From a virus (Duplodnaviria > Heunggongvirae > Uroviricota > Caudoviricetes), in the IMG/VR virus record IMGVR_UViG_2778261460_000002: 38,593 nt of DNA; one strand, 5' to 3'. The stretch's first letter is position 1; the number at the start of each line of letters is the position of its first letter. Made by a program: the position numbers and the translations under genes. Shown here one piece after another: positions 1,137-22,048 of the stretch. Under the pieces are notes generated by a model that had not been told where the DNA came from, made no database searches, and saw only the letters and a list, made by a program, of their open reading frames with translations.

Positions 1137-2813
1137 CTAAGCAACATGCAGTTCATCGTTGGCGGAAGTTGCTGCTTTGCGCTCTTGCTCAATCGCCAGT
1201 GACTCTCTATATTCTTTCGCTTCCGCAAACATTGTCCATTGTGCGTTGATGTTCATATCTTCAATAACAGACTTAATTTCTTTAATATTTACGTTGAAAA
1301 ACTCTTTTCGTGAGTTAATTTTATTGACCTGTTTTTCGTTGAAGACTTTATGCAGATGATTTTCTAATGATGGTGCATCATCACTATAAATCATCGCATG
1401 AACATCGAACGAAAAAGGAACACTAGCATCACCGAGTTCACGAACACGATCAAGTGGTTCAAGGCGGCGTGTCATTCCAATTTTATATACATCTTCGCCA
1501 AATGAGCCAATATTACTAATTATATAAACGTGGCCTGATCTAGTTTGTTGAGCCATAGAAATAGCTCGTTGGTTTTTAGCTTCAGCTTCTTCATATTTTA
1601 ACTGTAGTTCAGCTATTTTTTGCTCTAAAGCTAAGCGTTGTTCTTCATTTGCAAGCATAAGCTCTTTTGTTGCTTTATTTATAGCTTGCTGAATAGCTTT
1701 CTCTTCTTTTTCAGCTTCTTTTATCGCTTTTTCATACTCCCTACGAGCTCTTTCCTCTTCACGAAGTTGTTCTTTAATCCTTCTTTGCTCTTCTTTTTCT
1801 TCGAGCATAATTTCATTAACTGCAACTCCCCATTTTAGCTCGTTGAGTCGAGCTTGAAGATAGATGTCACTTATTTTTGCGGACCTAAAGGCAGAACCAT
1901 TGTAATTTACAAGTTGAAACGCATCTTTTATCTCTTGGGAAAGTTTTCCAAAATTGTTGTGTTTGACTTTTGATAAAATACTGTCAACTCTTCCATTGAA
2001 GGCATCTAAAACAAAGTTGATAGCAGTATTACGCCTGTTTTGTTCAACATAATCACACGAAGCAGCTTTATTAGTTTTTATTAATGATTTTGTTAACTCC
2101 CTGGCTTTTTGTAATTCCTTACCTGCATCTGTAAACTCATAATTTTCTGCCAATTCATCGAGAACGCTACGGTTAGGGATGATCCATTCATCACCATAAC
2201 CTTCAATTTTATTTTTCATTGATTTGGCAACTGCTTCATATTTTTCTGCAAACTCTTTAGCTTCATATGCTGAACCAGCAATCTCTTTTGCTCTTTCTTC
2301 TGCATCGGAAATAATTTTCACTGCATTGTCATTAGCATTTGAGATCAGCTCATTTGCTTTACTATTGGCATTATCAAGACGTTCTTTAGCTTTCAGGCGT
2401 GCATCGCGAGCGTCTTTAGTAATTGCTATAGCTTCGCTATTAGCGTTGCTTATTTTTATCTGAGCTTGATAATTTGCTTCGTTTACTGTCTTAGCAGCCT
2501 TTATTTGGGCTTCTTCTATTTTTTGCCTGGCTATTGAGTCTGCATTTTTTATCTTATTCTCTGCTTCCATCACTGCGCTGTGCAATTCTACGTATTGCCA
2601 TAATGGCGCAGCTCGTCCTTCAAGCTCTGATAGATCTCGTACAGTCTGTGCTAATTCTTCTTGATTTTCTTTCAGTTGGTTGGAAAGGGCTATGTTGTTA
2701 GCTGTCAAGGTATTTATAGCCGCTTTATGTTTTTTGCTTTGCTTAAATAATATTACAGCTAGAATGGGGGCGAGAAATGCTAATAAGAATATAACGATGG
2801 AAAATGAATTCAT
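1137..2813 (-). CDS. Membrane-anchored coiled-coil protein with C-terminal T5orf172 (GIY-YIG-like) domain; DUF4041-type architecture; candidate anti-phage/moron gene
   Basis: 558-aa ORF. N-terminal hydrophobic helix (SIVIFLLAFLAPILAVILF), long E/K/A/Q-rich coiled-coil region, C-terminal segment GHVYIISNIGSFGEDVYKIGMTRRLEPLDRVRELG typical of T5orf172. AT-rich relative to the phage backbone. Start codon 20 nt downstream of the cI stop with a GGA Shine-Dalgarno, same strand as cI and int. Confidence 0.7.
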   Translation of the reverse strand: MNSFSIVIFLLAFLAPILAVILFKQSKKHKAAINTLTANNIALSNQLKENQEELAQTVRDLSELEGRAAPLWQYVELHSAVMEAENKIKNADSIARQKIEEAQIKAAKTVNEANYQAQIKISNANSEAIAITKDARDARLKAKERLDNANSKANELISNANDNAVKIISDAEERAKEIAGSAYEAKEFAEKYEAVAKSMKNKIEGYGDEWIIPNRSVLDELAENYEFTDAGKELQKARELTKSLIKTNKAASCDYVEQNRRNTAINFVLDAFNGRVDSILSKVKHNNFGKLSQEIKDAFQLVNYNGSAFRSAKISDIYLQARLNELKWGVAVNEIMLEEKEEQRRIKEQLREEERARREYEKAIKEAEKEEKAIQQAINKATKELMLANEEQRLALEQKIAELQLKYEEAEAKNQRAISMAQQTRSGHVYIISNIGSFGEDVYKIGMTRRLEPLDRVRELGDASVPFSFDVHAMIYSDDAPSLENHLHKVFNEKQVNKINSRKEFFNVNIKEIKSVIEDMNINAQWTMFAEAKEYRESLAIEQERKAATSANDELHVA

Positions 2814-5103: not shown

Positions 5104-5330
5104 TGGCTGATGCAATGGATCTCGTACAGCAGCGCGTTGAAGAAGAACGCCAGCGCCATATCCGTGCTGCCCGTGCCAAAACGCCGGGCGTGTCCCGCGT
5201 GCTTTGCGTTGAGTGTGAAGCGCCAATTCCGCCAGCACGCCGCCGTGCCATTCCGGGTGTGCAGCTTTGCATTACATGTCAGGAAATCGCAGAGCTGAAA
5301 GGCAAACATTACAACGGAGGTGCTGTATGA
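5103..5330 (+). CDS. TraR/DksA-family C4 zinc-finger protein
   Basis: 75 aa with CVEC-x17-CITC zinc-finger spacing; start overlaps the upstream stop (TAATG). Confidence 0.55.
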   Translation: MADAMDLVQQRVEEERQRHIRAARAKTPGVSRVLCVECEAPIPPARRRAIPGVQLCITCQEIAELKGKHYNGGAV

Positions 5331-6184
5331 GCACCATCTTGAAATGGGCGGGAAATAAAACCGCCGTAATGTCCGAACTGAAAAAACATCTTCCTGCTGG
5401 TCCGCGACTAGTTGAACCTTTCGCGGGTTCCTGTGCTGTGATGATGGAGACGGATTATCCCTGCTATCTGGTTGCGGATATTAATCCTGATTTAATCAAC
5501 CTCTATAAAAAGGTTGCCGCTGATTGTGAATCGTTTATATCTCGCGCCAAAGTTTTATTTGAGATCGCAAACAGGGAGGTGGCTTATTACAACATAAGGC
5601 AGGAGTTTAATTACTCAACTGAAATTACTGATTTCATGAAAGCGGTATATTTCCTGTATCTCAATCGTCACGGTTACCGTGGGTTATGTCGCTATAACAA
5701 GAGCGGGCATTTCAACATTCCCTACGGTAATTATAAAAATCCGTATTTCCCTGAAAAAGAAATTCGCGCTTTTGCAGAAAAAGCCCAGCGAGCAACGTTT
5801 ATCTGCGCCAGCTTTGATGAAACGCTGGCGATGTTGAAGGCGGGGGATGTGGTGTATTGCGATCCGCCTTATGACGGTACGTTTTCCGGCTATCACGCTG
5901 ACGGCTTTACTGAAGATGACCAGTATCACCTGGCATCCGTTCTTGAACATCGGTCATCAGAAGGACATCCGGTCATTGTTTCTAACAGTGACACATCCCT
6001 GATCCGTTCGCTGTATCGCAATTTTACTCACCACTATATCAAGGTAAAACGCAGCATCGGCGTAGCAGCTGGTGAGAGTAAATCAGCAACAGAAATCATT
6101 GCTGTTTCCGGGCCGCGCTGCTGGGTGGGATTTGATTATTCGCGTGGCGTGGATAGTTCTGCCGTGTACGGAGTACGTGCATGA
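5327..6184 (+). CDS. dam: DNA adenine methyltransferase (Dam-like, N6-adenine, probable GATC specificity)
   Basis: 285-aa product from ATG 5327 ([11 protein letters not shown]...); N-terminal AdoMet-binding region (EPFAGSCAV) and catalytic DPPY motif; ATGA overlap with the upstream stop. Confidence 0.75.
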
Positions 6185-8595
6185 GCCATGCCGATATGAG
6201 CAACTGCTGCGGCTTTAACGAGGCTGCCGCATCGTTCTCATGGAACAGTCCGAAAAAGGCCATTAACCCTTATCTGGACCCGGCGGAAGTTGCGCCGGTT
6301 TCTGCGCTTTCAAACCTGATCACTCTGTACGCTGCCGATAACGAGCAGGAACAACTGCGCCGCGAGGCACTGAGTGATCAGGTCTGGGAGCGTTATTTCT
6401 TTAATGAATCCCGTGATCCTGTCCAACGCGAAATAGAGCAGGATAAGCTCATTAGCCGGGCAAAGTTGGCGCATGAGCAGCAGCGTTTTAACCCGGACAT
6501 GGTCATTCTGGCAGACGTCAGCGCCCAGCCCTCCCATATCAGCAAGCCGCTGATGCAACGTATTGAATACTTCAGCAGCCTGGGCAGGCCAAAGGCTTAT
6601 TCCCGCTATTTACGTGAGACGATTAAGCCATGTCTGGAACGACTGGAGCATGTACGCGACAGCCAGCTATCTGCATCTTTTCGTTTTATGGCAAGCCATG
6701 TAGGGCTGGACGGCCTGCTGATTCTGCCTGAAATGAGTCAGGATCAGGTGAAACGCCTGTCTACCCTTGTCGCTGCGCATATGAGCATGTGCCTTGATGC
6801 AGCTTGTGGTGATTTGTATGCCACCGATGACGTTAAGCCAGAAGAAATCCGCAAGACATGGGAAAAGGTGGCAGCGGAAACCCTGCGTCTGGATGTCATC
6901 CCGCCTGCGTTTGAGCAACTCCGTCGGAAAAGAAACCGCCGTAAACCCGTGCCCTATGAACTCATTCCGGGTTCGCTGGCGCGTATGTTGTGCGCCGACT
7001 GGTGGTACCGGAAATTATGGAAAATGCGTTGCGAATGGCGGGAAGAGCAGTTGCGTGCTGTCTGCCTGGTCAGCAAAAAAGCATCTCCCTATGTCAGCTA
7101 TGAAGCCGTGATGCATAAACGTGAGCAGCGCCGCAAGTCACTGGAGTTTTTCCGTTCTCATGAACTGGTGAACGAAGAGGGCGACACGCTGGATATGGAA
7201 GACGTGGTAAACGCCAGCAGCAGCAACCCGGCGCACCGCCGCAATGAGATGATGGCCTGTGTTAAAGGTCTGGAGCTTATCGCGGAAATGCGCGGTGACT
7301 GCGCCGTTTTCTACACCATTACCTGTCCGTCACGTTTCCATTCCACGCTCAATAACGGCAGACCAAACCCAACCTGGACAAATGCGACGGTAAGACAAAG
7401 CAGCGATTATCTGGTCGGCATGTTTGCTGCATTTCGTAAGGCGATGCACAAAGCCGGGTTGCGCTGGTATGGCGTGCGGGTGGCTGAGCCGCATCATGAC
7501 GGTACAGTTCACTGGCACCTGTTGTGTTTCATGCGCAAAAAAGACCGCCGCGCCATTACTGCATTGTTGCGTAAGTTTGCCATCCGTGAAGACCGCGAGG
7601 AACTGGGTAATAACACTGGTCCACGCTTTAAATCTGAGCTGATAAACCCGCGCAAAGGAACGCCGACAAGCTACATCGCGAAATACATCAGTAAGAACAT
7701 TGACGGGCGTGGTCTGGCTGGCGAGATCAGCAAGGAAACGGGTAAATCCCTGCGTGATAACGCTGAATACGTTAATGCCTGGGCGTCTCTGCATCGTGTT
7801 CAGCAATTCCGCTTCTTTGGTATTCCGGGACGTCAGGCTTACCGTGAACTTCGCTTGCTGGCTGGTCAGGCGGCAAGGCAACAGGGTGACAAAAAAGCAG
7901 GTGCGCCGGTACTGGATAACCCGCGTCTTGATGCCATTCTGGCTGCTGCTGATGCTGGTTGTTTTGCCACCTACATCATGAAGCAGGGCGGCGTACTGGT
8001 TCCCCGCAAATATCACCTCATCAGAACCGCTTATGAAATCAACGAAGAGCCAACCGCCTATGGCGATCACGGTATTCGTATTTATGGCATCTGGTCACCC
8101 ATTGCAGAGGGCAAGATCTGCACTCATGCAGTGAAGTGGAAAATGGTTCGTAAGGCCGTTGACGTTCAGGAGGCGGCAGCCGACCAGGGCGCTTGCGCCC
8201 CTTGGACTCGTGGCAATAACTGTCCCCTTGCTGAAAATTTGAACCAACAGGAGAAAGATAAATCAGCTGATGGAGACACCAGAACGGACATTACCCGCAT
8301 GGATGACAAGGAGTTGCACGATTACCTGCACAGTATGAGCAAAAAAGAGCGCCGGGAACTGGCAGCAAGGTTACGCCAGGTGAAGCCGAAAAGGCGTAAA
8401 GACTACAAACAGCGAATTACAGATCATCAGCATCAGCAGCTCGTCTATGAACTGAAGTCCAGAGGATTTGATGGCAGCGAGAAAGAGGTCGATTTACTCC
8501 TTCGCGGTGGCAGTATTCCGTCAGGAGCAGGCCTGCGTATTTTCTATCGGAACCAGCGTTTGCAGGAAGATGATAAGTGGCGGAACCTGTATTAA
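6181..8595 (+). CDS. Replication initiation protein A (P2 gpA / 186 replication endonuclease-like)
   Basis: 804-aa ORF after the early operon; size and position match P2 A; ATGA overlap with dam stop. Confidence 0.8.
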
Positions 8596-8689
8596 TTACG
8601 CGGGTTAACAATTCGTGCTCTTAATAATACCAGGCATATCAGGCTGATGAACGTAAAAAAACGTTTTACATCAGTAAGATTATTATATA

Positions 8690-8705
8690 CTGTAAATATA
8701 AACAG
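8690..8705 (+). promoter_or_regulatory. LexA (SOS) box CTGTAAATATAAACAG
   Basis: Exact match to the CTGT-N8-ACAG LexA operator consensus, about 45 nt upstream of the tum-like start, inside an AT-rich promoter-like region. Confidence 0.7.
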
Positions 8706-8748
8706 TGTTTATGCATACAGTATTGTTTGTGGTGTCATAGGAGGAAAG

Positions 8749-8937
8749 ATGCAGGACTATTTTTTGGAGTCTTTGAAGCTCCAGCGCATTGATTTTTTTC
8801 TTAAGCTTGTAGCGGCTAGTGAGTGTAGTGATGAAGAGAAGGGGCTGGCTCTGCAGTGGGTTTCTGAATTGACTGATGAACTCATGGCAAAAATCAGAAG
8901 CCACGAATACAACCGCTCAATGGATGTCATCAGCTGA
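8749..8937 (+). CDS. Small SOS-regulated protein, candidate Tum-like antirepressor
   Basis: 62-aa product from ATG 8749 with AGGAGG RBS (8739-8744); directly downstream of the LexA box; position matches the 186 tum locus. Confidence 0.45.
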   Translation: MQDYFLESLKLQRIDFFLKLVAASECSDEEKGLALQWVSELTDELMAKIRSHEYNRSMDVIS

Positions 8938-8947
8938 GGTGACTTTT

Positions 8948-9181
8948 ATGCGCATTGAAATAATGATCGATAAAGAGCAGAAGATTAGCCAGTCTACCCT
9001 GGACGCTCTGGAGTCCGAGCTTTACCGCAACCTGCAACCCATCTATCCCAAGACAGCTATCCGCATCCGTAAAGGGTCGGCAAACGGCGTTGAGCTGAGT
9101 GGCTTAAAGCTTGATGAAGACAAAAAGCGGGTGATGGAAATTATGCAGCAGGTTTGGGAAGACGACAGATGGCTGCACTAA
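8948..9181 (+). CDS. DinI-family protein
   Basis: 77-aa product MRIEIMIDKEQK...IMQQVWEDDRWLH aligns by eye with E. coli DinI (MRIEVTIAK ... ILQETWE ... W); second gene in the LexA-boxed operon. Confidence 0.65.
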   Translation: MRIEIMIDKEQKISQSTLDALESELYRNLQPIYPKTAIRIRKGSANGVELSGLKLDEDKKRVMEIMQQVWEDDRWLH

Positions 9182-9254
9182 GGAACGTTCCTGATGTAAG
9201 AACTTGATTCTGACGTCAGCAAGGTTGAACAACGAGAGTAGCGAGGCGTTAGCC

Positions 9255-9515
9255 ATGGGTAAAAAAGACAGTAATCACCAGATTATTTATCGGGGCCAGG
9301 TGCTGGAACGGTTTACCCCTGGCGGCTGGGTCTTCTTTCAACGCCCAAAGGAGTGTGGCGGAGGTTTTTAGTTGGGCCGCACCTATGAAGACTGCTTCTG
9401 GCTTGAGCTGGAATTCCCCGTTTCGCTATATGACGGCCTGGAGTTTTTGATGGAAGTCACCAGGGTAGAGCAGAGAAGTGATGAGGTTGACGCGAATTAT
9501 TCCCTGTTTGATTAA
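9255..9515 (+). pseudogene. Small ORF interrupted by an in-frame amber codon (TAG at 9369-9371); probable pseudogene
   Basis: ATG at 9255 opens 38 codons, TAG, then the same frame stays open for 47 more codons to TAA at 9513-9515. Confidence 0.3.
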
Positions 9516-9534
9516 AAATGTATTAGCTTATAAT
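9507..9534 (+). promoter_or_regulatory. Putative sigma70 promoter for the 203-aa gene (-35 TTTGAT/TTGATT, -10 TATAAT at 9529-9534)
   Basis: Perfect -10 hexamer with a plausible -35 at 15-16 bp spacing, about 30 nt upstream of the ATG at 9564. Confidence 0.4.
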
Positions 9535-9563
9535 GGAATACTATTTTTGCAGGTGGGGGCGCA

Positions 9564-10175
9564 ATGGATTTAGTCTTTAAAATTCTGGCTTCGTTGGGTG
9601 GGGTGTCTTTTGTTGCATCTGGCATATTTGTTTGGATCGGGAAAGTTTATTTAGAAAGATATAAGTCGCGGCTAAACAAAGATATTGCTGAATTTCAATC
9701 ACAACTGAGTGCAACTAATGAAAGAATAAAGGCTAAGTTAGACAATTCTGTTTATGTAACGAAAGCGTATTTTGATAAGGAGTTATCAGCATATAGTCTC
9801 ATTTGGAATTCGATGTTTGAAACCAGAGAAAGCGTGCTTAAGCTGAGGCCTGCGCTGGATCATTTTGACCCCAACGAACCATTTGAAGAGAGAAAATTTA
9901 GAAGGTTGAAAGTTTTTTTCGATGCATTTAATACTTTTGTTACAAGTGTTGAGTCTAACAAACCGTTCATCTCACCAGAGGTTTATATAATCTTGGACCG
10001 TTTCCGGAAGGAATGCCTTTCAGAGTCAATATCGTTTCAGCATGGCGATCCAGAATTTGACTGGCAAAATTATTGGAAAGAGGCAGAGTTGAACCGTACA
10101 ACCATCACCAAGCTTTTTGATGAGACGTGTGATGCAATTCGAGACAGGATGCACACATTAACTGTGGTTACGTAG
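9564..10175 (+). CDS. Single-pass membrane protein of unknown function; accessory cargo in the old/tin-equivalent position
   Basis: 203-aa ORF with N-terminal hydrophobic helix (ILASLGGVSFVASGIFVWIG) and a soluble domain with no recognisable motifs; AT-rich; own promoter and terminator. Confidence 0.6.
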   Translation: MDLVFKILASLGGVSFVASGIFVWIGKVYLERYKSRLNKDIAEFQSQLSATNERIKAKLDNSVYVTKAYFDKELSAYSLIWNSMFETRESVLKLRPALDHFDPNEPFEERKFRRLKVFFDAFNTFVTSVESNKPFISPEVYIILDRFRKECLSESISFQHGDPEFDWQNYWKEAELNRTTITKLFDETCDAIRDRMHTLTVVT

Positions 10176-10266
10176 TTTTCCAAAAAGTCTCGATGCCCGC
10201 TTTGGCGATTGTGCATGTCTATGCCGCATGAATCCGCATGATCGTTTGAGGATCGTTTTAGCTGAG

Positions 10267-10290
10267 GCCCGCTAGGAATGGCGGGCTTTT
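10267..10290 (+). terminator. Rho-independent terminator (gcccgc-loop-gcgggc-tttt)
   Basis: Perfect 6-bp GC stem with 8-nt loop followed by TTTT, about 90 nt downstream of the 203-aa gene. Confidence 0.55.
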
Positions 10291-10335
10291 GCTTATGTCA
10301 TGCAGGCGCATGAAAACCACTACATAAAGCGGGCA

Positions 10336-10354
10336 GGCGTGGCGGGGATACGAG
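10336..10354. other. Probable cos site (cohesive-end region) GGCGTGGCGGGGATACGAG
   Basis: Matches from memory the start of the P2/186 cohesive end (GGCG[A/T]GGCGGGGA...), with a GCGCGCT tract after it as in P2; lies between the replication side and the portal gene. Not verified by alignment. Confidence 0.45.
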
Positions 10355-10367
10355 CGCGCGCTCATGG

Positions 10368-10396
10368 TTGAATTAATGAAATTATGGTGTTAAATA
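10368..10396 (+). promoter_or_regulatory. Putative sigma70 promoter for the 232-aa gene: -35 TTGAAT (10368-10373), 17-bp spacer, extended -10 TGtTAAATA (10388-10396)
   Basis: Read directly from the sequence; about 70 nt upstream of the ATG at 10465, which has a GGGAGGAG RBS. Confidence 0.45.
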
Positions 10397-10464
10397 GGCT
10401 AGCTTTTTAAGTCGTGAATATTCAATTTTTCAACTCATTTTTTTCATAGGGAGGAGTAATTGAC

Positions 10465-11163
10465 ATGGTTATGTTAGTGGATGACTGTCCACGATGTGGA
10501 TCACAAAAAATAGCGTTTGATGTTAATGGGCTGAATTGCACTAGGGTTTACAATGCATTGGGCGGGGGTAAAACATACGAGTACGAGGTCTATTGTGTTT
10601 GCCGAGAGTGTCATAAAACGACAATGTTTCTTTGCAGACCTTTAACGAAAAATAAAACTTTAGATGGCTATAATTGGAAAAGTGGAATATTCGGCTTAAA
10701 GGAAGTTGCAGAGGTTGTTAGGCCTATATCACCGGCAGACTTAGCAGTAGAGGAGCCACCAGAGTTCTTACCTGAGCATATCAATAGTGCATATGAGGAA
10801 GGGGCGAAATGTTTGGCTATAGGTTGTTATAATGCAGCAGCAACCATGTTTAGGCTTTGCCTTGATTATGCCACAAAAGGACTTCTTCCTGATGGGGAGC
10901 AAGGGCCTGCGCAAAAAATAAGGAGAAGCCTAGGGTTAAGAATGGAGTGGTTATTTGATAATCATCTACTGCCTGAAGCTTTAAGGGAACTAGCTGAATG
11001 CGTTAAAGATGACGGAAATGATGGAGCGCATGAAGGTATTTTGGATAAAGCTGCTGCTGAGGATCTTGAAGATTTTACCTATCTTTTTTTAGAACGGCTT
11101 TACACTGAACCTCAACGCCTTATCGAAGCCAAGACAAGGCGTGAACAAAGAAGAAACAAATAA
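10465..11163 (+). CDS. Zinc-ribbon protein with DUF4145/HEPN-like C-terminal domain; accessory cargo between cos and the portal gene
   Basis: 232-aa ORF; N-terminal CPRC-x35-CRECH Cys cluster; C-terminal helical region with GNDGAHEG resembling the RN..AHG motif of DUF4145 as recalled (arginine replaced). AT-rich, own promoter. Confidence 0.55.
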   Translation: MVMLVDDCPRCGSQKIAFDVNGLNCTRVYNALGGGKTYEYEVYCVCRECHKTTMFLCRPLTKNKTLDGYNWKSGIFGLKEVAEVVRPISPADLAVEEPPEFLPEHINSAYEEGAKCLAIGCYNAAATMFRLCLDYATKGLLPDGEQGPAQKIRRSLGLRMEWLFDNHLLPEALRELAECVKDDGNDGAHEGILDKAAAEDLEDFTYLFLERLYTEPQRLIEAKTRREQRRNK

Positions 11164-11171
11164 GTTCGGAA

Positions 11172-12209
11172 TTATTCTTCTGAAAGAATATAGGGCGTAA
11201 ATTTAATCACTTCTTCGCCCAGCCAGTCGTTCAGCTCTTGTAGCCTTTTTTGCAAGGGCGTTAATTCATTACGTACAAATACGCGACTGGCCTTCTCCAC
11301 ATCCCCAAATCCCCCAACATTATTAGGCATTATCCCCATCATTTGTGGCGGTACACGGTGCGCAGCCATCATGTCATCGCGGCTGACATTTTTGATATTC
11401 AGAAACTCATCCTTCGCCGCGACTTCTGACAGAGGAATGATCTGAAGGCCGTCCTTTTTGCCGTTCGGCGAGTACATAAACAGGTTACGGAAATTGCCAG
11501 GTCCTTTGGCGCTTTTCATCGCATTACGGAGGTTGTTTACATCCTCCTGGTTCTGCGCGGCGTCGGTCATGTACATGATGAAGCCTGCGTGGCTGCCGTT
11601 AATGTAATACTTGCGGCGGAACAGCGTGGCGGACTCGTTGAGTAGGGCTGACGGAATGGCAGAAAGATAACCGGGCAGGCCGTAGATCTCCTGGTTGATA
11701 TCCGGTTCCATCAGGTGAAAAATGCTGCCTTTCGTGAACTGATACGGTTGCGTGGTCATGCCGTATTGCACAAACCAGTAGGTATCCAGGTCTAATCCGC
11801 GTCGGGTGTATTTTGCCAGGGCAGGTTCAAGGGCGATAACTTCACCGAAGCGGTTCGTGCGTTTCTCCAGGTAGGCGTTACCAAAAACCAGATAGTCCTG
11901 CACAAAACGCGAAAAAGCCTGCTGGCTGAGCAGCGGGTGAGGGATGTAGGTGCTGGTCAGAATGTTGCACTTTACTGCAATCGGGGAACTATGATGCACG
12001 GCAGCGCGGAAGGTGCGCGCCAGTCCGTCAAAGCTGACGGGCGGCTCATACCAGCGGTCCATCTGTACGCATTCCACATAATCCAGCAGTTCTCGGCGGT
12101 CCAGAACAGGAACGGGATCGCCGAAGCTGAATGCTTCGGCTGTAGTTTGACTTTTAAGCTGGATCTGTTTCGTCGCCGCAGCGCGGTTCTTCTTACTCTT
12201 TCCCATCAA
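11172..12209 (-). CDS. Portal protein (P2 gpQ-like)
   Basis: 345-aa ORF adjacent to and overlapping the terminase gene start; first gene after cos as in P2. Confidence 0.8.
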   Translation of the reverse strand: MMGKSKKNRAAATKQIQLKSQTTAEAFSFGDPVPVLDRRELLDYVECVQMDRWYEPPVSFDGLARTFRAAVHHSSPIAVKCNILTSTYIPHPLLSQQAFSRFVQDYLVFGNAYLEKRTNRFGEVIALEPALAKYTRRGLDLDTYWFVQYGMTTQPYQFTKGSIFHLMEPDINQEIYGLPGYLSAIPSALLNESATLFRRKYYINGSHAGFIMYMTDAAQNQEDVNNLRNAMKSAKGPGNFRNLFMYSPNGKKDGLQIIPLSEVAAKDEFLNIKNVSRDDMMAAHRVPPQMMGIMPNNVGGFGDVEKASRVFVRNELTPLQKRLQELNDWLGEEVIKFTPYILSEE

Positions 12210-13972
12210 AAAATCTCCACAATATTGCTGGTATTGGCGGATTCGCCCTGCAGCGGTTCGTTAAACAGTGCGTGCATTGTTGCCCAGGCCAGATCGGCAT
12301 GGCTGGCTTCTTCGCTGCGGCTGGCTTCATAGGTTGGGCGGTTGCCGCTGGCGGTGGTGGCGCGACGGATTGCCATAAATGACTGCGCTATGTCGGTGTG
12401 TCCGGCGTCAAACTCCAGACGACGGTGACTGATAATGTCGTAGGCCTTGAGTACCAGGGCGTTTTTAACGTTGGGGTTGTAGACAAACTCCCGGACGGCT
12501 GGAAAAAACGCTTTCACGTTCTCGTAAACCCCGTGGCCGACACCTGTCGAGTCGATGCCGATGTAGGTCACGTTGTACTGTTCGGTCAGTTTTTTGATGG
12601 CGTCAGCCTGGGCGCGAAAGTCCATTCCGCGCCACTGGTGACGCTCAAGAATGCGGAACTTGCCGCCCGGCACGGCTGGCGGTGCCACCACCACGCATCC
12701 GGCGCTGTCGCCATTCTGCGTACCTTTCGCCGGGTCATAACCGATCCATACTTCGCGCCAGCCAAACGGGCGCAGGGCCAGTGCATGAAAGTCAGTCCAG
12801 ACTTCCCAGCTGTCTACCATGCACGCCTGCAGCTCGCTGAGCGGGAACACGGACGCGAGATCGTCCACAAACTCGCACATCAGCAGGTTCTGGTATTCGT
12901 CCGGACTGTACTCCATGCGCAACTGGTCAAGGTCGAACAGGTTACAGCCGCCGCGCACCGCATCTTCCACGGTGACTATCTGGCGGTATTGCCCGTCTGC
13001 GCACAGCAGGCCGGGGGCCAGATTGCTGTGGGACAGGTCGATGTCCACCTTATCGGCTTTGTTGCGCCCACGGTTGAACAGCGCACCGGACCAGAACGGA
13101 TAAGCACTGTGTGTCAGGCTGGATGGCGTGGAAAAATAGGTTTGTCGCCATTTTTTGTGAATAGCCATACCGGAAGCCACTTTGCGCAGCTCCTGGAATT
13201 TCGGTATCCAGAAATATTCATCCAGATACAGGTTGCCGTGGTAACTCTGGGCCGTGCGGGCATTGGTGCCGAGGAAGTAAAGCGTGGCCCCGTTGGGAAG
13301 CACCATCGGATCGCCTTTCAGCTCCACCTCCACTTCTTTGGCGAAGTCGATGATGTACTGCTTAAAGACGTGGGCCTGTGCCTTACTGGCAGAAAGGAAA
13401 ATCTGGTTACGTCCGGTAAGCAGGGCGTCAATCAGGGCTTCACGGGCAAAATAGAAGGTCGCGCCGATCTGGCGTGACTTCAGCAGGTTGCGGATGCGGT
13501 TGGTTTTTCCGGCTTCCCACCAGTGGCGCTGGTAGTTGAACATGGAGGAATGGAAAATTTCTTCCAGCTTCTCAATCTGTTCATCGGTGAAAACATTCTT
13601 TTCAGGCTGACGGCGTGGGCCTTTGTTGCGGTTGGCGACGTTAGGGTTTAAGTCAGCTTCGTTGCCGCCATTGTTAAACTTGCCGATCCGCGCGTGGCGC
13701 TCCGACTGGCGCGCCAGCAGGTCAATCTCTTTGAAATCTTTCCCTTCTTTGTGCTCCTTCATGATGAGCTGGCAGTAGCGTGCGGCGGTGGTGAGCTGCA
13801 TCTGATCCAGCGGCCCATAGTCACCCCACTTGTCGCGTTTTTTCCAGCTGTGAACGGTTGCAACTTTCTCGCCCAGCATTTCAGCAATGCGGGCTACGCG
13901 GTATCCCTGAAAGTACAGCAGCATGGCCTGCCGACGGGGATCGAGATCTGCGGGTGTCAGTGTGGTGTTCAT
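12206..13972 (-). CDS. Terminase large (ATPase) subunit (P2 gpP-like)
   Basis: 588-aa ORF, same strand as portal, divergent from the capsid operon. Confidence 0.8.
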   Translation of the reverse strand: MNTTLTPADLDPRRQAMLLYFQGYRVARIAEMLGEKVATVHSWKKRDKWGDYGPLDQMQLTTAARYCQLIMKEHKEGKDFKEIDLLARQSERHARIGKFNNGGNEADLNPNVANRNKGPRRQPEKNVFTDEQIEKLEEIFHSSMFNYQRHWWEAGKTNRIRNLLKSRQIGATFYFAREALIDALLTGRNQIFLSASKAQAHVFKQYIIDFAKEVEVELKGDPMVLPNGATLYFLGTNARTAQSYHGNLYLDEYFWIPKFQELRKVASGMAIHKKWRQTYFSTPSSLTHSAYPFWSGALFNRGRNKADKVDIDLSHSNLAPGLLCADGQYRQIVTVEDAVRGGCNLFDLDQLRMEYSPDEYQNLLMCEFVDDLASVFPLSELQACMVDSWEVWTDFHALALRPFGWREVWIGYDPAKGTQNGDSAGCVVVAPPAVPGGKFRILERHQWRGMDFRAQADAIKKLTEQYNVTYIGIDSTGVGHGVYENVKAFFPAVREFVYNPNVKNALVLKAYDIISHRRLEFDAGHTDIAQSFMAIRRATTASGNRPTYEASRSEEASHADLAWATMHALFNEPLQGESANTSNIVEIF

Positions 13973-14114: not shown

Positions 14115-14948
14115 ATGACAGTGAAAGCAAAGCGTTTTCGCATCGGGGTGGAAGGTGCCACCACCGACGGACGCGAAATCCAGCGTGAATGGCTGGAACA
14201 GATGGCAGCCAGCTACAACCCGGCGGTGTATACCGCGCTGATTAACCTTGAGCACATCAAGTCTTATCTGCCGGACAGCACCTTTAACCGCTACGGTAAG
14301 GTGACGGCGCTGTTTGCTGAAGAAATCACGGAAGGTCCGCTGGCAGGCAAGATGGCGCTGTATGCCGACGTTGAGCCAACGGAGTCCCTGGTGGAACTGG
14401 TGAAAAAAGGCCAGAAATTATTCACCTCTATGGAAGTCAGCCCGAAGTTTGCTGATACGGGCAAAGCCTACCTGGTCGGCCTGGCAGCCACTGATGACCC
14501 TGCCAGTCTGGGCACTGAAATGCTGACATTCAGCGCCAGTGCAGCCCATAACCCGCTGGCAAACCGCAAGCAGAATCCCGCCAATCTCTTTACAGCCGCA
14601 GAGGAAACGGTGATCGAACTGGAAGAAATCCAGGAGGACAAGCCGTCCCTGTTTGCCCGTGTCACGGCGCTGTTCACCAAAAAAGAGCAGTCCGATGACG
14701 CCCGGTTCTCTGATGTGCATAAGGCCGTGGAACTGGTCGCCACTGAGCAGCAGAACCTGAGTGCGCGCACCGAAAAATCCCTGTCTGAGCAGGAAGAGCG
14801 CCTGTCTGAGCTGGAGACAGCCCTGCAGGCACAGCAGACCGCCTTTAACGAACTGGTGGACAAGCTGAGCCAAGAAGACAGCCGCCAGGACTACCGCCAG
14901 CGTGCAACAGGCGGTAACGCCCCCGCTGACACTCTGACCAATTGCTGA
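14115..14948 (+). CDS. Capsid scaffolding protein (P2 gpO-like)
   Basis: 277-aa ORF, first gene of the rightward late operon, immediately before the major capsid gene. Confidence 0.75.
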   Translation: MTVKAKRFRIGVEGATTDGREIQREWLEQMAASYNPAVYTALINLEHIKSYLPDSTFNRYGKVTALFAEEITEGPLAGKMALYADVEPTESLVELVKKGQKLFTSMEVSPKFADTGKAYLVGLAATDDPASLGTEMLTFSASAAHNPLANRKQNPANLFTAAEETVIELEEIQEDKPSLFARVTALFTKKEQSDDARFSDVHKAVELVATEQQNLSARTEKSLSEQEERLSELETALQAQQTAFNELVDKLSQEDSRQDYRQRATGGNAPADTLTNC

Positions 14949-14964
14949 TGGAGCACAAAACCTG

Positions 14965-16020
14965 ATGAAGAAGAATACCCGCTTTGCTTTTAACGCTTAC
15001 CTGCAGCAACTGGCGCGTCTGAACGGTGTGGCAGTTGAAGAACTGTCCAGCAAGTTCACCGTAGAGCCGTCCGTGCAGCAGACATTGGAAGACCAGATCC
15101 AGCAGTCCGCCGCTTTCCTGACGCTGATTAACGTCACGCCAGTGACTGAGCAGTCCGGTCAGCTGCTGGGGTTGGGAGTTGGCAGCACCATTGCCGGAAC
15201 CACTGATACCACCGCGAAAGAGCGTGAACCTGTCGATCCGACGCTGATGGTCGATGTGGAATATAAATGCGAGCAGACCAACTTTGACACGGTGCTGACC
15301 TACGCGAAGCTGGACCTGTGGGCGAAGTTTCAGTATTTTCAGGTGCGTATCCGTGACGCCATCGTGAAACGTCAGGCACTGGACCGCATCATGATCGGCT
15401 TTAACGGCGTGAAGCGTGCGAAAACCTCCAACCGTAGCGAAAACCCGCTGCTGCAGGATGTGAATAAAGGCTGGCTGCAGAAAATCCGTGAGGATGCACC
15501 GGATCACGTCATGGGCAGCACCACCACGGGCGGTGAAACCACACCGGGCGCGGTGAAAGTCGGTAAAGGTGGCGAATATGCCAACCTGGACGCCGTGGTG
15601 ATGGATGCCGTTAATGAGCTTATCGACGTGGTCTACCAGGACGATGACGATCTGGTGGTGATTTGCGGTCGTGAACTGTTGTCTGATAAGTATTTCCCGC
15701 TGGTCAACAAAGAGCAGGAAAACAGTGAAAAACTGGCTGCCGATATGATCATCAGCCAGAAACGCATGGGTGGCCTGCAGGCCGTGCGTGCGCCGTTCTT
15801 CCCGCCGAATGCGCTGCTGATCACCCGTCTGGATAACCTGTCCATCTACTGGCAGGAAGACACCCGCCGCCGTTCAGTTATCGACAACCCGAAACGTGAC
15901 CGGATTGAAAACTTTGAATCCGTTAACGAAGCCTATGTGGTTGAGGACTACCGCTGCGCAGCACTGGTGGAAAACATCCAGATTGGCGACTTCAGCACCG
16001 CCGCAGAAGCCGGAGCATAA
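14965..16020 (+). CDS. Major capsid protein (P2 gpN-like)
   Basis: 351-aa ORF after the scaffold gene. Confidence 0.8.
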   Translation: MKKNTRFAFNAYLQQLARLNGVAVEELSSKFTVEPSVQQTLEDQIQQSAAFLTLINVTPVTEQSGQLLGLGVGSTIAGTTDTTAKEREPVDPTLMVDVEYKCEQTNFDTVLTYAKLDLWAKFQYFQVRIRDAIVKRQALDRIMIGFNGVKRAKTSNRSENPLLQDVNKGWLQKIREDAPDHVMGSTTTGGETTPGAVKVGKGGEYANLDAVVMDAVNELIDVVYQDDDDLVVICGRELLSDKYFPLVNKEQENSEKLAADMIISQKRMGGLQAVRAPFFPPNALLITRLDNLSIYWQEDTRRRSVIDNPKRDRIENFESVNEAYVVEDYRCAALVENIQIGDFSTAAEAGA

Positions 16021-16023
16021 ACC

Positions 16024-16674
16024 ATGAGCCTGAGTCCCGCACGGCAGCATCGCCTGCGCGTTCAGGCTGAACAGGCCGCCCGCGAGGGCGGCAGTGTTCG
16101 CCACGCGTCGGGCTATGACCTGATGCTGCTGCAACTGGCGGAAGACCGCCGCCGTCTCAAGGGCGTTCAGTCCACGGTCAAAAAAGCGGAAATCAAAGTG
16201 GAGCTGCTGCCGAAGTACGCCGCCTGGGCGGAGGGTGTCCTGGCTGCCGGAGGCGCACAGCAGGATGACGTGCTGATGTACGTGATGCTGTGGCGCATTG
16301 ATGCCGGAGATTATGCCGGGGCGCTGGAGATCGGGCGTCATGCCCTGCGTCATGGCTGGGTGATGCCGCTGGGTAACCGCAACGTGCAGACCGTGCTGGC
16401 AGAGGAAATGGCAGACGCAGCGCAGAGCGCAATGCTTGCCGCCATCGGCTTTGATGCTGATCTGTTGCTGCAGACGCTGGAACTGACAGACGATCTGGAT
16501 ATGCCGGACCAGTCACGGGCGCGTCTGCATAAAGCGATTGGCGCAGTCCTGAGTGAAAGCAATCCGGCTTTCGCCCTTAATCATCTCAACCATGCGTTAC
16601 AGCTCGATCCCCGCTGTGGCGTGAAAAAAGACAAACAGCAGCTGGAGCGCAGACTGCGCAATGACAGCCGCTGA
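16024..16674 (+). CDS. Terminase small (endonuclease) subunit (P2 gpM-like)
   Basis: 216-aa ORF after the capsid gene, as in P2. Confidence 0.7.
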   Translation: MSLSPARQHRLRVQAEQAAREGGSVRHASGYDLMLLQLAEDRRRLKGVQSTVKKAEIKVELLPKYAAWAEGVLAAGGAQQDDVLMYVMLWRIDAGDYAGALEIGRHALRHGWVMPLGNRNVQTVLAEEMADAAQSAMLAAIGFDADLLLQTLELTDDLDMPDQSRARLHKAIGAVLSESNPAFALNHLNHALQLDPRCGVKKDKQQLERRLRNDSR

Positions 16675-19944: not shown

Positions 19945-20796
19945 TTATTTCATTTCGTGTGGCATATTTATGGCTTTAATTTTTTCGTGGTAATGATTAA
20001 ACTCAATATGAGCATTGGTAAAATTAGATTCAAATGTATTCATTAAATTGGAATATAATGATTCATATGATAAGGATACTTTTTTTCCATTTTTTTCTGC
20101 AGTTGTGCTAATGTACCTATGTACTGCAGAAAAAAGAAAATGACCTCTAAGCCACTTTCTGTATTCTATCGATTTTGATTTGAAAGATGAATCGATGTTA
20201 TCTGGTTCCACACCTAATTTTTCAATGATGGTGTTTTTGTAACTCGTGATTTTTTGCTCGCAAATTTCATTTGATTTTCTAGATTTCATGAAACGATCTG
20301 CACTGTCACCAATAACTGAAATGCCTTTTCTATAAATATGATTGTATATATCAAGTTTTATTAGGGGTTCCATTTTGGTATAAAAGTCTTCTGTCCAAGA
20401 ATCGACGTTGACATCGTTCATTATCTTTTGAGGTAATTTTCCGAGAGTTTTTATTGCCTTATATATGCCTGTTTTGTCAATAAACGTGTTTTCGATGGAG
20501 TGCCCATAAGTTTTTACAATGCGACTATCAGCGTTTTCCTCATTTTCAAATGTAGTGAAGTCTGCATCACATGCAATTATAATTTGAAGATCTTCATCAG
20601 TAACTCTATCAATATATTTTTTTAATTCTTCACAGCCGCCAACATCTTTGATTTCAACCTTTAATGAACTAGCTTTATTAAAGATGATTTCCCAAAAGCA
20701 AATATCATCTGGGCCTTCAACATAAACCATGGCTTCAGCTTGGTAAAATAAATTCATTACATTTTCTGCTTCGGCAGAATAATGGAAATCATCCAT
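19945..20796 (-). CDS. DUF4435/Toprim-like nuclease, PARIS AriB-like (OLD-family Toprim fold)
   Basis: Open frame extends to 20880 (311 aa). The ATG at 20796 overlaps the upstream stop as ATGGATGA, so 283 aa is more likely. Toprim-like acidic motifs YVEGPDD and IIACDADF. Very AT-rich. Confidence 0.55.
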   Translation of the reverse strand: MDDFHYSAEAENVMNLFYQAEAMVYVEGPDDICFWEIIFNKASSLKVEIKDVGGCEELKKYIDRVTDEDLQIIIACDADFTTFENEENADSRIVKTYGHSIENTFIDKTGIYKAIKTLGKLPQKIMNDVNVDSWTEDFYTKMEPLIKLDIYNHIYRKGISVIGDSADRFMKSRKSNEICEQKITSYKNTIIEKLGVEPDNIDSSFKSKSIEYRKWLRGHFLFSAVHRYISTTAEKNGKKVSLSYESLYSNLMNTFESNFTNAHIEFNHYHEKIKAINMPHEMK

Positions 20797-22048
20797 GAAC
20801 CAATTTCTCCATATCAAAGATTGCATTTCGATATTTAGAAGCCACTTCTGGTGAATGCGTAGCGGCGATAATTTGCGCATTAGGATTAAGTTGTTTGATT
20901 GCAGGTATTATTTTTCGTTGCCATGCAATATGTAGCGATAATTCTGGTTCATCAGTAAGATAGATGAAAGGTTTGTTTTGCTGTAGCAAAGTTTCAATAA
21001 AAAGAATTAATAGCTGTTTTTCACCAGACGATAAATTACTATGGCTAATCGGCCCATGCTCGTTTTCTATTACTAGCTCACCGGAGATAAAATTAAATTT
21101 TTTATCGGTTATGAACTCATGTAATGTTTCTAAAAATAGATTTATAGGAAGAAATATGTTTTTTATTTTCTCCTCGGATTTTAAAGACATCTTTATAATT
21201 CTTTGCGTCTTTCGTAATGCCTCAAATGATCTGTAATCTACATTTAAAATATTTCTGTTATTTTTTTCTGCAAGTCGTAATTCTTCAAATGTTTTGGCAA
21301 TAGATTCAACGTGAAAGTTAATCTTCTTTCTGACATCACTATCAAAAGCTCCAAGCTGAGAATATGCAGCTATTAAATTTCTACGTTCTTTTTCTTTATC
21401 AAAAGAAAAGTTAAATGTGTCATCGATACCATCTTCTTTACTATAAAGAATAGAAGCAAGAACCTCTTTCTGTAATATTGCAGAAACATCACGAGCTCTT
21501 TGTGATAAATAAAGTTGATATTTTGTTAGGTTCTGCAATAATTGTTCTAATCGGTAATCAACAGGGTTGATTAATTTTGAGCCATATTTGTCTCTGATTT
21601 CAAAATCTTCACCGCTTCTAAGTCGGTAAACTGATAGAGAAGATAAAGCAACTAATTTATCTAACTCTAATTTAAGTTTTTCAACGTCTTCCTGATATTT
21701 TCTCCTCATATAAATAGGTAGTCTACGATCTTCAAAGGATCTGATAATATATTTCTTTCTAGAAATTGTATATTCAAACGTAGGCAAAGCTTTAGTTATG
21801 TCAAATTTACTCACAACTTTTATTGTTTTAGTTTTGCTTCCTTCTTTTATTTTTATTGTTACATTATCAAAACTATTCTCATTTAGTGATTCGAGTTCTA
21901 ATGCCAGAACTGAGTGAAGAATATTCATAAAGGTTGTTTTACCGGTCCCATTTCGACCAATAATAATATTTACATCTTCATTAAATGAACATGATGCATT
22001 TAGTCTTCCCCAAAAACCTTCAATCTTGACACTAGATAATCTAAACAT
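20789..22048 (-). CDS. ABC-type ATPase (AAA_15/AAA_21-like), PARIS AriA-like
   Basis: 419 aa; Walker A GRNGTGKTT, Walker B-like IYLTDEPE, H-loop AATHSPEV; translationally coupled to the downstream DUF4435 gene. Confidence 0.6.
   Translation of the reverse strand: MFRLSSVKIEGFWGRLNASCSFNEDVNIIIGRNGTGKTTFMNILHSVLALELESLNENSFDNVTIKIKEGSKTKTIKVVSKFDITKALPTFEYTISRKKYIIRSFEDRRLPIYMRRKYQEDVEKLKLELDKLVALSSLSVYRLRSGEDFEIRDKYGSKLINPVDYRLEQLLQNLTKYQLYLSQRARDVSAILQKEVLASILYSKEDGIDDTFNFSFDKEKERRNLIAAYSQLGAFDSDVRKKINFHVESIAKTFEELRLAEKNNRNILNVDYRSFEALRKTQRIIKMSLKSEEKIKNIFLPINLFLETLHEFITDKKFNFISGELVIENEHGPISHSNLSSGEKQLLILFIETLLQQNKPFIYLTDEPELSLHIAWQRKIIPAIKQLNPNAQIIAATHSPEVASKYRNAIFDMEKLVHG

What the first reader, a model, noticed from the sequence alone, without database searches (positions are those of the whole stretch)
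10176..10464. Probable cos site inside the cargo region, so accessory genes flank both genome ends
GGCGTGGCGGGGATACGAG at 10336-10354 resembles the P2/186 cohesive-end sequence as I recall it. If correct, the 203-aa gene is the last gene at the right end of the packaged genome and the 232-aa gene is inserted between cos and the portal gene, where P2 has only about 90 bp. An insertion that close to cos must preserve terminase recognition, so the exact boundaries are informative about how cargo is acquired.
Basis: partly seen in the sequence, partly recalled or inferred. Interest (0 to 1): 0.45.

Follow-up and report, generated by a model that had tools for sequence, protein, structure and literature searches.

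The report
P2-type cos site between cargo genes
The flagged sequence is very probably the DNA-packaging cut site (cos) of a P2-like prophage with variable accessory genes on both sides, but this site and its cargo hotspot are already described for these phages.

Summary
Observation confirmed. GGCGTGGCGGGGATACGAG is at 10336-10354, and the 55-bp cos core around it (10307-10361) matches phage 186 at 43/55, P4 at 42/55 and P2 at 41/55. The best match in 200 shuffled windows was 33-35.

The window is a P2-like (Elveevirus) prophage. Across 9182-11171 it differs at two bases from Escherichia phage Cartapus, whose record annotates window 10304-10362 as "putative cos site". The SEN8 paper gives the identical 19-mer as cos.

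The cos region is a 152-bp conserved island (10211-10362) between unrelated DNA. It occurs in 1,260 of 5,426 complete E. coli genomes. The 203-aa cassette is in 52 of them, the 232-aa DUF4145 cassette in 43, and both together in 25.

Across 67 prophages from other species, the gap from cos to the portal stop is 104-6,452 bp and exceeds 400 bp in 57. Cargo there is the rule. One correction: P2 has 167 bp there, not about 90.

Homology stops 7-8 bp past the overhang, at the right edge of the P2/P4 core. That stretch mirrors the nick half-site on the other side. The extended recognition side carries GCAT motifs at -123, -110, -100 and -28.

The cos-proximal hotspot between gpA and gpQ is already published. 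Virion ends in this clade remain unmapped.

The parts
9255..9515 (+). 86-aa ORF of the right-end cargo slot. It is homologous to Cartapus CARTA_46 but is interrupted here by a stop codon created by G->A at 9370.
   Evidence: The same ORF is flagged 'internal stop' in E. coli EC26.
9564..10175 (+). 203-aa accessory gene with a hydrophobic N-terminus and no Pfam or PADLOC family. It is the last gene before the right genome end.
   Evidence: It matches PHROG 26391, function unknown. The cassette is present in only 52 of 5,426 E. coli genomes.
10211..10362 (+). Conserved 152-bp cos island: 125 bp to the left of the top-strand nick, the 19-nt overhang, and 8 bp to its right. DNA on both sides is unrelated between relatives.
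   Evidence: blastn breakpoints fall at 10209-10213 and 10359-10364 in most of the loci that carry the island. Supported by the per-column conservation of 66 sequences, 78 phage records and 1,260 E. coli genomes.
10213..10239 (+). Three phased GCAT motifs (10213, 10226, 10236; offsets -123, -110, -100 from the nick). Inferred to be a terminase-recognition array.
   Evidence: The same offsets occur in 186, P4, Fels-2, SopEphi and MLG42; in P2 the first motif sits at -122. In Pseudomonas-group loci the motif is GCAG, with matching offsets (-110/-109 and -100/-99) in most of them.
10260..10298 (+). GC-rich hairpin followed by a T-run, resembling an intrinsic terminator for rightward transcription (A, DinI, cargo). 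It lies inside the cos island.
   Evidence: Folding energy -22.9 kcal/mol, z = -4.1, with 0 of 200 shuffles folding as well. The stem is conserved across the clade.
10307..10361 (+). Homologue of the 55-bp P2/P4 cos core. It includes the fourth GCAT at 10308.
   Evidence: The core as a concept comes from Ziermann & Calendar 1990, as cited in PMC5694545 and PMC9594776.
10336..10354 (+). Predicted 19-nt 5' cohesive end, which would be the left end of the virion DNA.
   Evidence: The identical 19-mer is given as cos for phage SEN8 (PMC5427200). It is also the exact 19-mer in 33 of the 67 surveyed prophages in which a cos was located.
10355..10362 (-). Bottom-strand nick half-site. CGCGCGCT is the reverse complement of AGCGCGCG and mirrors AAGCGGGCA on the top strand. 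It marks the right limit of the cos island.
   Evidence: GCGsGCr precedes both predicted nicks in the 66 cos-region sequences and in P2, 186 and P4.
10465..11163 (+). 232-aa DUF4145 gene with N-terminal Cys pairs. It is cargo of the left-end slot, and its stop codon lies 8 bp from the convergent portal stop.
   Evidence: Pfam DUF4145, 4.5e-7. Weak PADLOC hit to PD-T7-4, 1.2e-6. PHROG 1305. The cassette is in 43 of 5,426 E. coli genomes.
11172..12209 (-). Portal gene (gpQ homologue).
12206..13972 (-). Terminase large subunit (gpP homologue), full length.
16024..16674 (+). Terminase small subunit (gpM homologue, Pfam Phage_term_smal), full length. Presumed reader of the cos island.

Best explanation
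The intergenic region holds the cos site of a P2-like (Elveevirus, Fels-2 group) prophage. Terminase (a gpP homologue plus a gpM homologue) is inferred to make staggered nicks: before G10336 on the top strand and after position 10354 on the bottom strand. This would give 19-nt 5' cohesive ends. In the virion the 203-aa gene would therefore be the last gene at the right end, and the 232-aa DUF4145 gene the first gene at the left end. The functional cos is asymmetric. About 125 bp on the right-end side is constrained: three phased GCAT motifs, a terminator-like hairpin, a fourth GCAT and the core. Only 7-8 bp beyond the overhang is constrained on the left-end side, and that stretch is the mirror-image nick half-site GCGsGCr. 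Cargo can therefore start 8-9 bp after the overhang. The conserved island splits the known gpA-gpQ hotspot into two slots. Their contents differ between otherwise syntenic phages. They probably swap by homologous recombination that uses the cos island, the DinI region and the 3' end of the portal gene as anchors. What is shown: the homology, the boundaries, the slot variability and an intact packaging gene set. What is inferred: the exact nick positions, the role of the GCAT array and the exchange mechanism.
For: Core and overhang homology to the annotated cos sites of P2, 186 and P4 lies far above chance. Position and orientation match P2 and 186: downstream of A/DinI and ahead of the convergent portal and terminase genes. 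The near-identical phage Cartapus annotates window 10304-10362 as a putative cos, and encapsidated Cartapus genomes are produced by LF82 (PMC9928086). SEN8, a plaque-forming CsCl-purified phage, has the identical 19-mer annotated as cos and also carries genes on both sides of it (PMC5427200). The 152-bp island is conserved with sharp edges in 78 phage records, in 1,260 of 5,426 E. coli genomes and in 66 prophages of other species, while both flanks vary. The right edge coincides with the end of the P2/P4 shared core, and P4 is packaged by P2 terminase although its sequence beyond +7 is unrelated (PMC9122126; PMC9594776). Symmetric GCGsGCr half-sites precede both predicted nicks. GCAT phasing at -123/-110/-100/-28 is shared with P2, 186 and P4, and the motif is GCAG at matching offsets in most Pseudomonas-group loci examined. 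Slot contents assort at least partly independently. The 203-aa cassette is in 52 genomes, the DUF4145 cassette in 43 and both in 25. Three other species carry the DUF4145 cassette without a 203-aa gene.
Against: No virion-end data exist for this prophage, for Cartapus or for SEN8. Every cos call in this clade is by similarity ('putative'; 'putative'; PMC5427200 'annotation resulted in the identification'). Four of the last six overhang positions differ from 186, so the bottom-strand nick position is extrapolated. Cartapus virion yield is very low and no particles were seen by TEM (PMC9928086). The window prophage is not Cartapus itself: it is 97.5% identical over the portal and terminase genes and has other cargo and flanks. 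I found no text on the role of the GCAT array, so it may already be described or may serve another factor.
Confidence: 0.88

Rival explanations
1. It is a true cos homologue, but the nicks or the overhang length differ from 10336/10354. For example, the bottom-strand cut could be shifted by a few bases, because the 3' part of the overhang has diverged from P2 and 186.
For: Positions 14, 16, 17 and 19 differ from 186. Position 13 varies within the clade among A, C, G and T. A 20-nt overhang has been predicted for a Burkholderia relative (PMC5247547).
Against: The GCGsGCr half-sites sit at exactly the 19-nt stagger on both strands in this clade and in P2, 186 and P4. The distance between the conserved left flank and the conserved CGCGCGC is unchanged.
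Confidence: 0.08
2. The island is conserved mainly as a transcriptional boundary (a terminator plus regulatory sites), and the cos similarity is a relic in a prophage that no longer packages DNA.
For: A strong terminator-like hairpin lies inside the island. Cartapus virion output is low and no plaque host was found (PMC9928086). One neighbouring ORF carries a premature stop.
Against: Conservation is highest over the overhang and both nick half-sites, not over the hairpin. The terminase, portal, scaffold and capsid genes are full length. Plaque-forming relatives (SEN8 and the Yersinia vB_YpM phages) keep the same island.
Confidence: 0.03
3. The 19-mer is a chance G-rich match with no relation to packaging.
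For: A short 13-mer with one mismatch turns up by chance in 12 of 100 shuffles.
Against: The 55-bp core scores 43/55 against a shuffle maximum of 33-35. The flanking architecture, the position and the conservation across dozens of species all agree.
Confidence: 0.01

Closest known systems
cos sites of phages 186, P2 and satellite P4 (19-nt 5' cohesive ends; 55-bp core of Ziermann & Calendar 1990)
   Same: The first 13 nt of the overhang are identical to 186. The 55-bp core matches at 41-43/55. GCAT motifs sit at the same offsets. The location is the same, ahead of the convergent portal and terminase genes. The GCGCGC half-site follows the overhang.
   Different: The overhang ends ATACGAG rather than AAAGCA(T/C). 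A terminator-like hairpin occupies the poorly conserved spacer. There are 817 bp with a gene between cos and the portal, against 167 bp in P2 and 176 bp in 186. The ends are not experimentally mapped.
Predicted cos of Fels-2-group phages: Escherichia phage Cartapus (OV696611/NC_070909) and Salmonella phage SEN8 (KT630647.2)
   Same: The 19-mer is identical. Cartapus differs from the window at two bases over 9182-11171 and carries the same two cargo genes. SEN8 also has genes on both sides of cos.
   Different: The window prophage is a mosaic relative. It is 97.5% identical over the portal and terminase genes, carries PD-Lambda-1 and PARIS-like cargo elsewhere, and no ssrA is present in the window.
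cos-proximal (gpA-gpQ) defence and cargo hotspot of P2-like phages (Rousset et al. 2022, PMC9122126; PMC13586616; earlier Dodd & Egan 1996 and Nakayama 1999 as cited in PMC5694545)
   Same: Variable accessory genes lie between gpA/DinI and gpQ, next to cos. Relatives carry AIPR/Abi-alpha, TIR/SEFIR, Hypoth_Ymh and HNH genes in the same place.
   Different: Those papers treat the locus as one hotspot. Here it resolves into two slots separated by a 152-bp conserved cos island. The two cargo genes in this window have no demonstrated defence function.

Membership tests
P2/186/P4-type cos site | G-rich 19-nt cohesive-end sequence homologous to GGCG(A/T)GGCGGGGAAAGCA(C/T) | tested here: met
   15/19 to 186 and 14/19 to P2. 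Positions 1-12 are near-invariant in the 66 cos-region sequences examined.
P2/186/P4-type cos site | Conserved 55-bp core spanning the overhang (29 nt left, 19, 7 right) | tested here: met
   43/55 (186), 42/55 (P4) and 41/55 (P2), against at most 35 in 200 shuffles.
P2/186/P4-type cos site | Location between the right-end early/accessory region and the portal-terminase operon, in the same orientation | tested here: met
   The order gpA, DinI, cargo, cos, cargo, portal(-), terminase(-) is seen. The same order holds in 67 of 80 surveyed loci.
P2/186/P4-type cos site | Cognate P2-type terminase (gpP large subunit and gpM small subunit) encoded by the element | tested here: met
   Terminase_6N, Terminase_6C and Terminase_5 domains at 12206-13972, and Phage_term_smal at 16024-16674, both full length.
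P2/186/P4-type cos site | Cleavage in vivo that yields virion DNA with 19-nt 5' cohesive ends at this site | not testable with these tools
   This needs virion DNA. The Cartapus and SEN8 records both say 'putative'.
P2/186/P4-type cos site | Sufficiency of the region for packaging or transduction (cosmid assay) | not testable with these tools
Indirect support comes from plaque-forming relatives that keep only this 152-bp island in common.
cos-proximal cargo hotspot of P2-like phages | Gene content between gpA and gpQ varies among otherwise syntenic relatives | tested here: met
   The island is in 1,260 E. coli genomes, but the 203-aa cassette is in 52 and the DUF4145 cassette in 43. The cos-to-portal spacing is 104-6,452 bp.
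cos-proximal cargo hotspot of P2-like phages | Cargo genes provide anti-phage defence | tested here: inconclusive
   The 232-aa protein has DUF4145 (4.5e-7) and a weak PADLOC hit to PD-T7-4 (1.2e-6). The 203-aa protein has no Pfam or PADLOC hit. There is no functional test.

The most novel reading that the evidence does not exclude
The sharp 152-bp limits show that recognition by P2-family terminase is strongly one-sided. A phased GCA(T/G) array on the right-end arm, which appears to change together with the phage lineage, would act as the binding site (a cosB analogue). The left-end arm would need only the 7-8-bp nick half-site. This asymmetry is what lets cargo sit within 9 bp of the genome end. 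It also makes the cos island a recombination anchor, so that two defence slots assort independently and could be exchanged with P4-like satellites. Parts of this may already be in Ziermann & Calendar 1990, which I could not read.
Probability: 0.45. Interest if true: 0.3.

Novelty: already known. Interest (0 to 1): 0.12.

Why it matters
Knowing where cos lies tells you which accessory genes sit at the physical ends of the packaged genome. It also gives the minimum DNA needed to build a packageable cosmid or to engineer cargo in Fels-2-type phages. The sharp boundaries give a testable definition of the minimal cos (10211-10362). They also give a practical way to split the published gpA-gpQ hotspot into two independently varying slots when mining for defence genes. 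None of this changes the current understanding of P2-like phages.

Tried and rejected
- Rfam search of 9900-10700 at a permissive threshold returned only sub-threshold chance hits, so no known RNA family explains the island.
- The promoter and terminator scan of 9100-11400 found no more sites than in shuffled sequence. It missed the 10260-10298 hairpin, which I confirmed separately by folding.
- I tried to obtain the P2 review (Christie & Calendar 2016) by DOI and by a remembered PMC id; neither is held. Ziermann & Calendar 1990 is likewise not in the library. I therefore could not check the published minimal cos length, the packaging direction, or whether the GCAT array is already described.
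- I tried to map the LF82 'moron' tags LF82_783 and LF82_789 to genes. The paper text does not allow it.
Their function does not bear on whether this is cos.
- Chance was considered and rejected as an explanation.

Full report
**What is in the sequence.**
The 289-bp gap 10176-10464 lies between the stop of a 203-aa ORF (9564-10175, +) and the start of a 232-aa ORF (10465-11163, +). The 19-mer GGCGTGGCGGGGATACGAG is at 10336-10354. The surroundings are a P2-type prophage with these parts:
- integrase at 1-1053;
- replication gene A at 6181-8595;
- DinI ending at 9181;
- portal at 11172-12209 (-);
- large terminase at 12206-13972 (-);
- scaffold, capsid and small terminase from 14115 to 16674, followed by tail genes.

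**Is the resemblance real?**
I fetched the ends of P2, 186 and P4 from their GenBank records, where the cohesive ends are annotated, and joined right end to left end.
- The window 19-mer matches 186 at 15/19 and P2 at 14/19.
- The similarity covers the whole 55-bp block that P2 and P4 share: 29 nt left of the nick, the 19-nt overhang and 7 nt to its right.
- Window 10307-10361 matches 186 at 43/55, P4 at 42/55 and P2 at 41/55. It is the best hit on either strand of the window.
- In 200 dinucleotide-preserving shuffles the best score was 33-35, with a mean of about 29 and sd of about 1.1.

**Identity of the element.**
The region matches Escherichia phage Cartapus (OV696611/NC_070909, genus Elveevirus, prophage 4 of E. 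coli LF82). Over 9182-11171 the window differs from Cartapus at two bases.
- The Cartapus record is linearised at window 10304. It annotates its bases 1-59 (window 10304-10362) as "putative cos site, homologous to the cos of P2 phage".
- In that record the DUF4145 gene is gene 1 and the 203-aa gene is the last gene.
- LF82 releases encapsidated Cartapus genomes at a low level. No particles were seen by TEM and the ends were not mapped (PMC9928086).
- A full-text search for the exact 19-mer found the SEN8 genome announcement, which gives "ggcgtggcggggatacgag" as the cos of a plaque-forming, CsCl-purified Fels-2-like Salmonella phage (PMC5427200).
- The SEN8 record starts at the first base of the 19-mer. 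It has two genes between cos and the portal, and one between DinI and cos.

All of these cos calls are by similarity ("putative"). None rests on end sequencing.

**The cos island and its edges.**
- blastn of the gap against 50,697 phage records found 78 relatives. Each shares only about 10211-10362.
- I fetched 80 prophage loci from different bacterial species through their portal gene. blastn of window 8600-12300 against them gave breakpoints at 10209-10213 and 10359-10364 in most of the loci that carry the island. Homology resumes only at 11185-11206, inside the last codons of the portal gene. On the left, homology ends near 9252 in many loci.
- Column-wise conservation across 66 distinct sequences shows the same limits.
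- Among 5,426 complete E. coli genomes, 1,260 contain the island. Only 52 contain the 203-aa cassette, 43 contain the DUF4145 cassette, and 25 contain the whole stretch 9182-11171.
- Raoultella, Leclercia and Tatumella prophages carry the DUF4145 cassette at about 77-80% identity, with the same junctions but without the 203-aa gene.

Both genes are therefore cargo. The two slots assort at least partly independently.

**How common is cargo between cos and the portal?**
A strict cos match lies upstream of the portal stop, in the same orientation, in 67 of the 80 loci. The exact window 19-mer occurs in 33 of them.
- The distance from the end of the overhang to the portal stop ranges from 104 to 6,452 bp, with a median of 1,684 bp.
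- It is at most 260 bp in 10 loci and more than 400 bp in 57.
- The distance from gpA to cos ranges from 460 to 4,390 bp.

Occupancy of the left-end slot is thus the rule in this clade. Relatives carry AIPR/Abi-alpha, TIR/SEFIR, Hypoth_Ymh and HNH genes there.

**Why cargo can sit so close.**
The right limit of the island (+7 or +8 after the overhang) coincides with the end of the P2/P4 shared core. P4 is packaged by P2 terminase although its sequence beyond GCGCGC is unrelated (PMC9122126; PMC9594776).

Reading the bottom strand, the 8 bp after the overhang (CGCGCGCT, i.e. AGCGCGCG) mirror the 8 bp before the top-strand nick (AAGCGGGCA). The motif GCGsGCr precedes both predicted nicks in the 66 sequences and in P2, 186 and P4. 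I infer that these are the two nicking half-sites and that nothing further is needed on the left-end arm.

The right-end arm carries about 125 constrained bp:
- GCAT motifs at -123, -110, -100 and -28 from the nick (window 10213, 10226, 10236, 10308). The offsets are the same in 186, P4, Fels-2, SopEphi and a Yersinia phage, and P2 has -122 for the first, although the spacer DNA is not alignable between P2, 186, P4 and this clade.
- In Pseudomonas and Stutzerimonas prophages the motif is GCAG. Most of those loci have it at -110/-109, -100/-99, -36 and -28, although a few lack one of these positions or show GCGG at -28. I read this shared motif change as the signature of a co-evolving DNA-binding protein, most plausibly the small terminase subunit. 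This is inference.
- A terminator-like hairpin at 10260-10298 lies in the spacer (-22.9 kcal/mol, z = -4.1). It would stop rightward transcription of A, DinI and the cargo before the core.

**Comparison with what is known.**
- The locus between gpA and gpQ, "adjacent to the cos site", is the published P2 defence hotspot (PMC9122126; PMC13586616).
- The position between cosL and the gpQ homologue was already called a hotspot for foreign genes, citing Dodd & Egan 1996 and Nakayama 1999 (PMC5694545).
- The 55-bp core is from Ziermann & Calendar 1990, as cited in PMC5694545 and PMC9594776.

The finding is correct, but it re-derives known biology. The refinements made here may be only partly documented:
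- the exact 152-bp limits of the island;
- the mirrored nick half-sites;
- the phased GCA(T/G) array;
- the separate assortment of the two slots.

I could not read the 1990 paper or the P2 review to check.

**The cargo genes.**
- The 232-aa protein has a DUF4145 domain (4.5e-7), N-terminal Cys pairs, PHROG 1305 and a weak PADLOC hit to PD-T7-4 (1.2e-6).
- The 203-aa protein has a hydrophobic N-terminus, no Pfam or PADLOC family and a PHROG of unknown function.

A defence role is plausible from the location but is untested.

**Limits.**
The nick positions, the overhang length, the role of the array and the recombination mechanism are all inferred. The decisive data are virion-end sequencing and cosmid deletion assays. 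My confidence that this is the functional cos with cargo on both genome ends is about 0.88. The novelty class is "already known" and the interest score is 0.12.

Noticed in passing
window 1137-2813 (-): A 558-aa protein between the integrase and the repressor matches PADLOC PD-Lambda-1 (4.7e-120) and has DUF4041 and T5orf172/MUG113 domains. It is a defence gene in a third cargo slot, which LF82 Cartapus lacks at this place.
   Followed up: partly
window 19945-22048 (-): An overlapping gene pair inside the tail-gene block (a 419-aa AAA ATPase and a 311-aa protein) matches PARIS AriA (5.7e-40) and AriB (3e-24). LF82 Cartapus has a different small gene at the corresponding position.
   Followed up: partly
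window 9370: A single G->A change relative to Cartapus turns a Trp codon into a stop in the 86-aa ORF at 9255-9515. The same ORF is flagged 'internal stop' in E. coli EC26.
   Followed up: yes
window 10240-10261: Tandem 11-mers GATCGTTTGAG / GATCGTTTTAG, each with a Dam site (GATC), lie inside the cos island and are well conserved in the clade. The phage encodes its own Dam methylase (5267-6184). Their function is unknown.
   Followed up: no
window 10194-10203 and 10326-10335: A perfect 10-nt inverted repeat, TGCCCGCTTT / AAAGCGGGCA. The second arm is the top-strand nick half-site. The first arm lies just outside the conserved island, at the tail of the 203-aa cassette. This may be chance and is unexplained.
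   Followed up: no
window 11163-11206: The stop codons of the DUF4145 gene and the convergent portal gene are 8 bp apart with no hairpin between them, whereas many relatives have a bidirectional terminator hairpin there. DNA homology to relatives resumes only at 11185-11206, so the last 5-11 portal codons travel with the cassette. The portal C-terminal tails differ after a conserved PY.L motif.
   Followed up: partly
L079-L088 (Pseudomonas and Stutzerimonas loci), about 140 bp upstream of their cos: The repeated motif upstream of cos is GCAG instead of GCAT, at nearly the same offsets (-110/-109, -100/-99, -36, -28) in most of these loci. A few lack one position or have GCGG at -28. This suggests co-variation with the terminase small subunit.
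   Followed up: partly
whole window; L095 (LF82 2734500-2771500): LF82 Cartapus sits next to ssrA. The window contains no tRNA or tmRNA gene and is followed by an Asp-Al_Ex family permease gene (35527-37212). The same cos and cargo module therefore sits in a mosaic relative with different flanks.
   Followed up: partly
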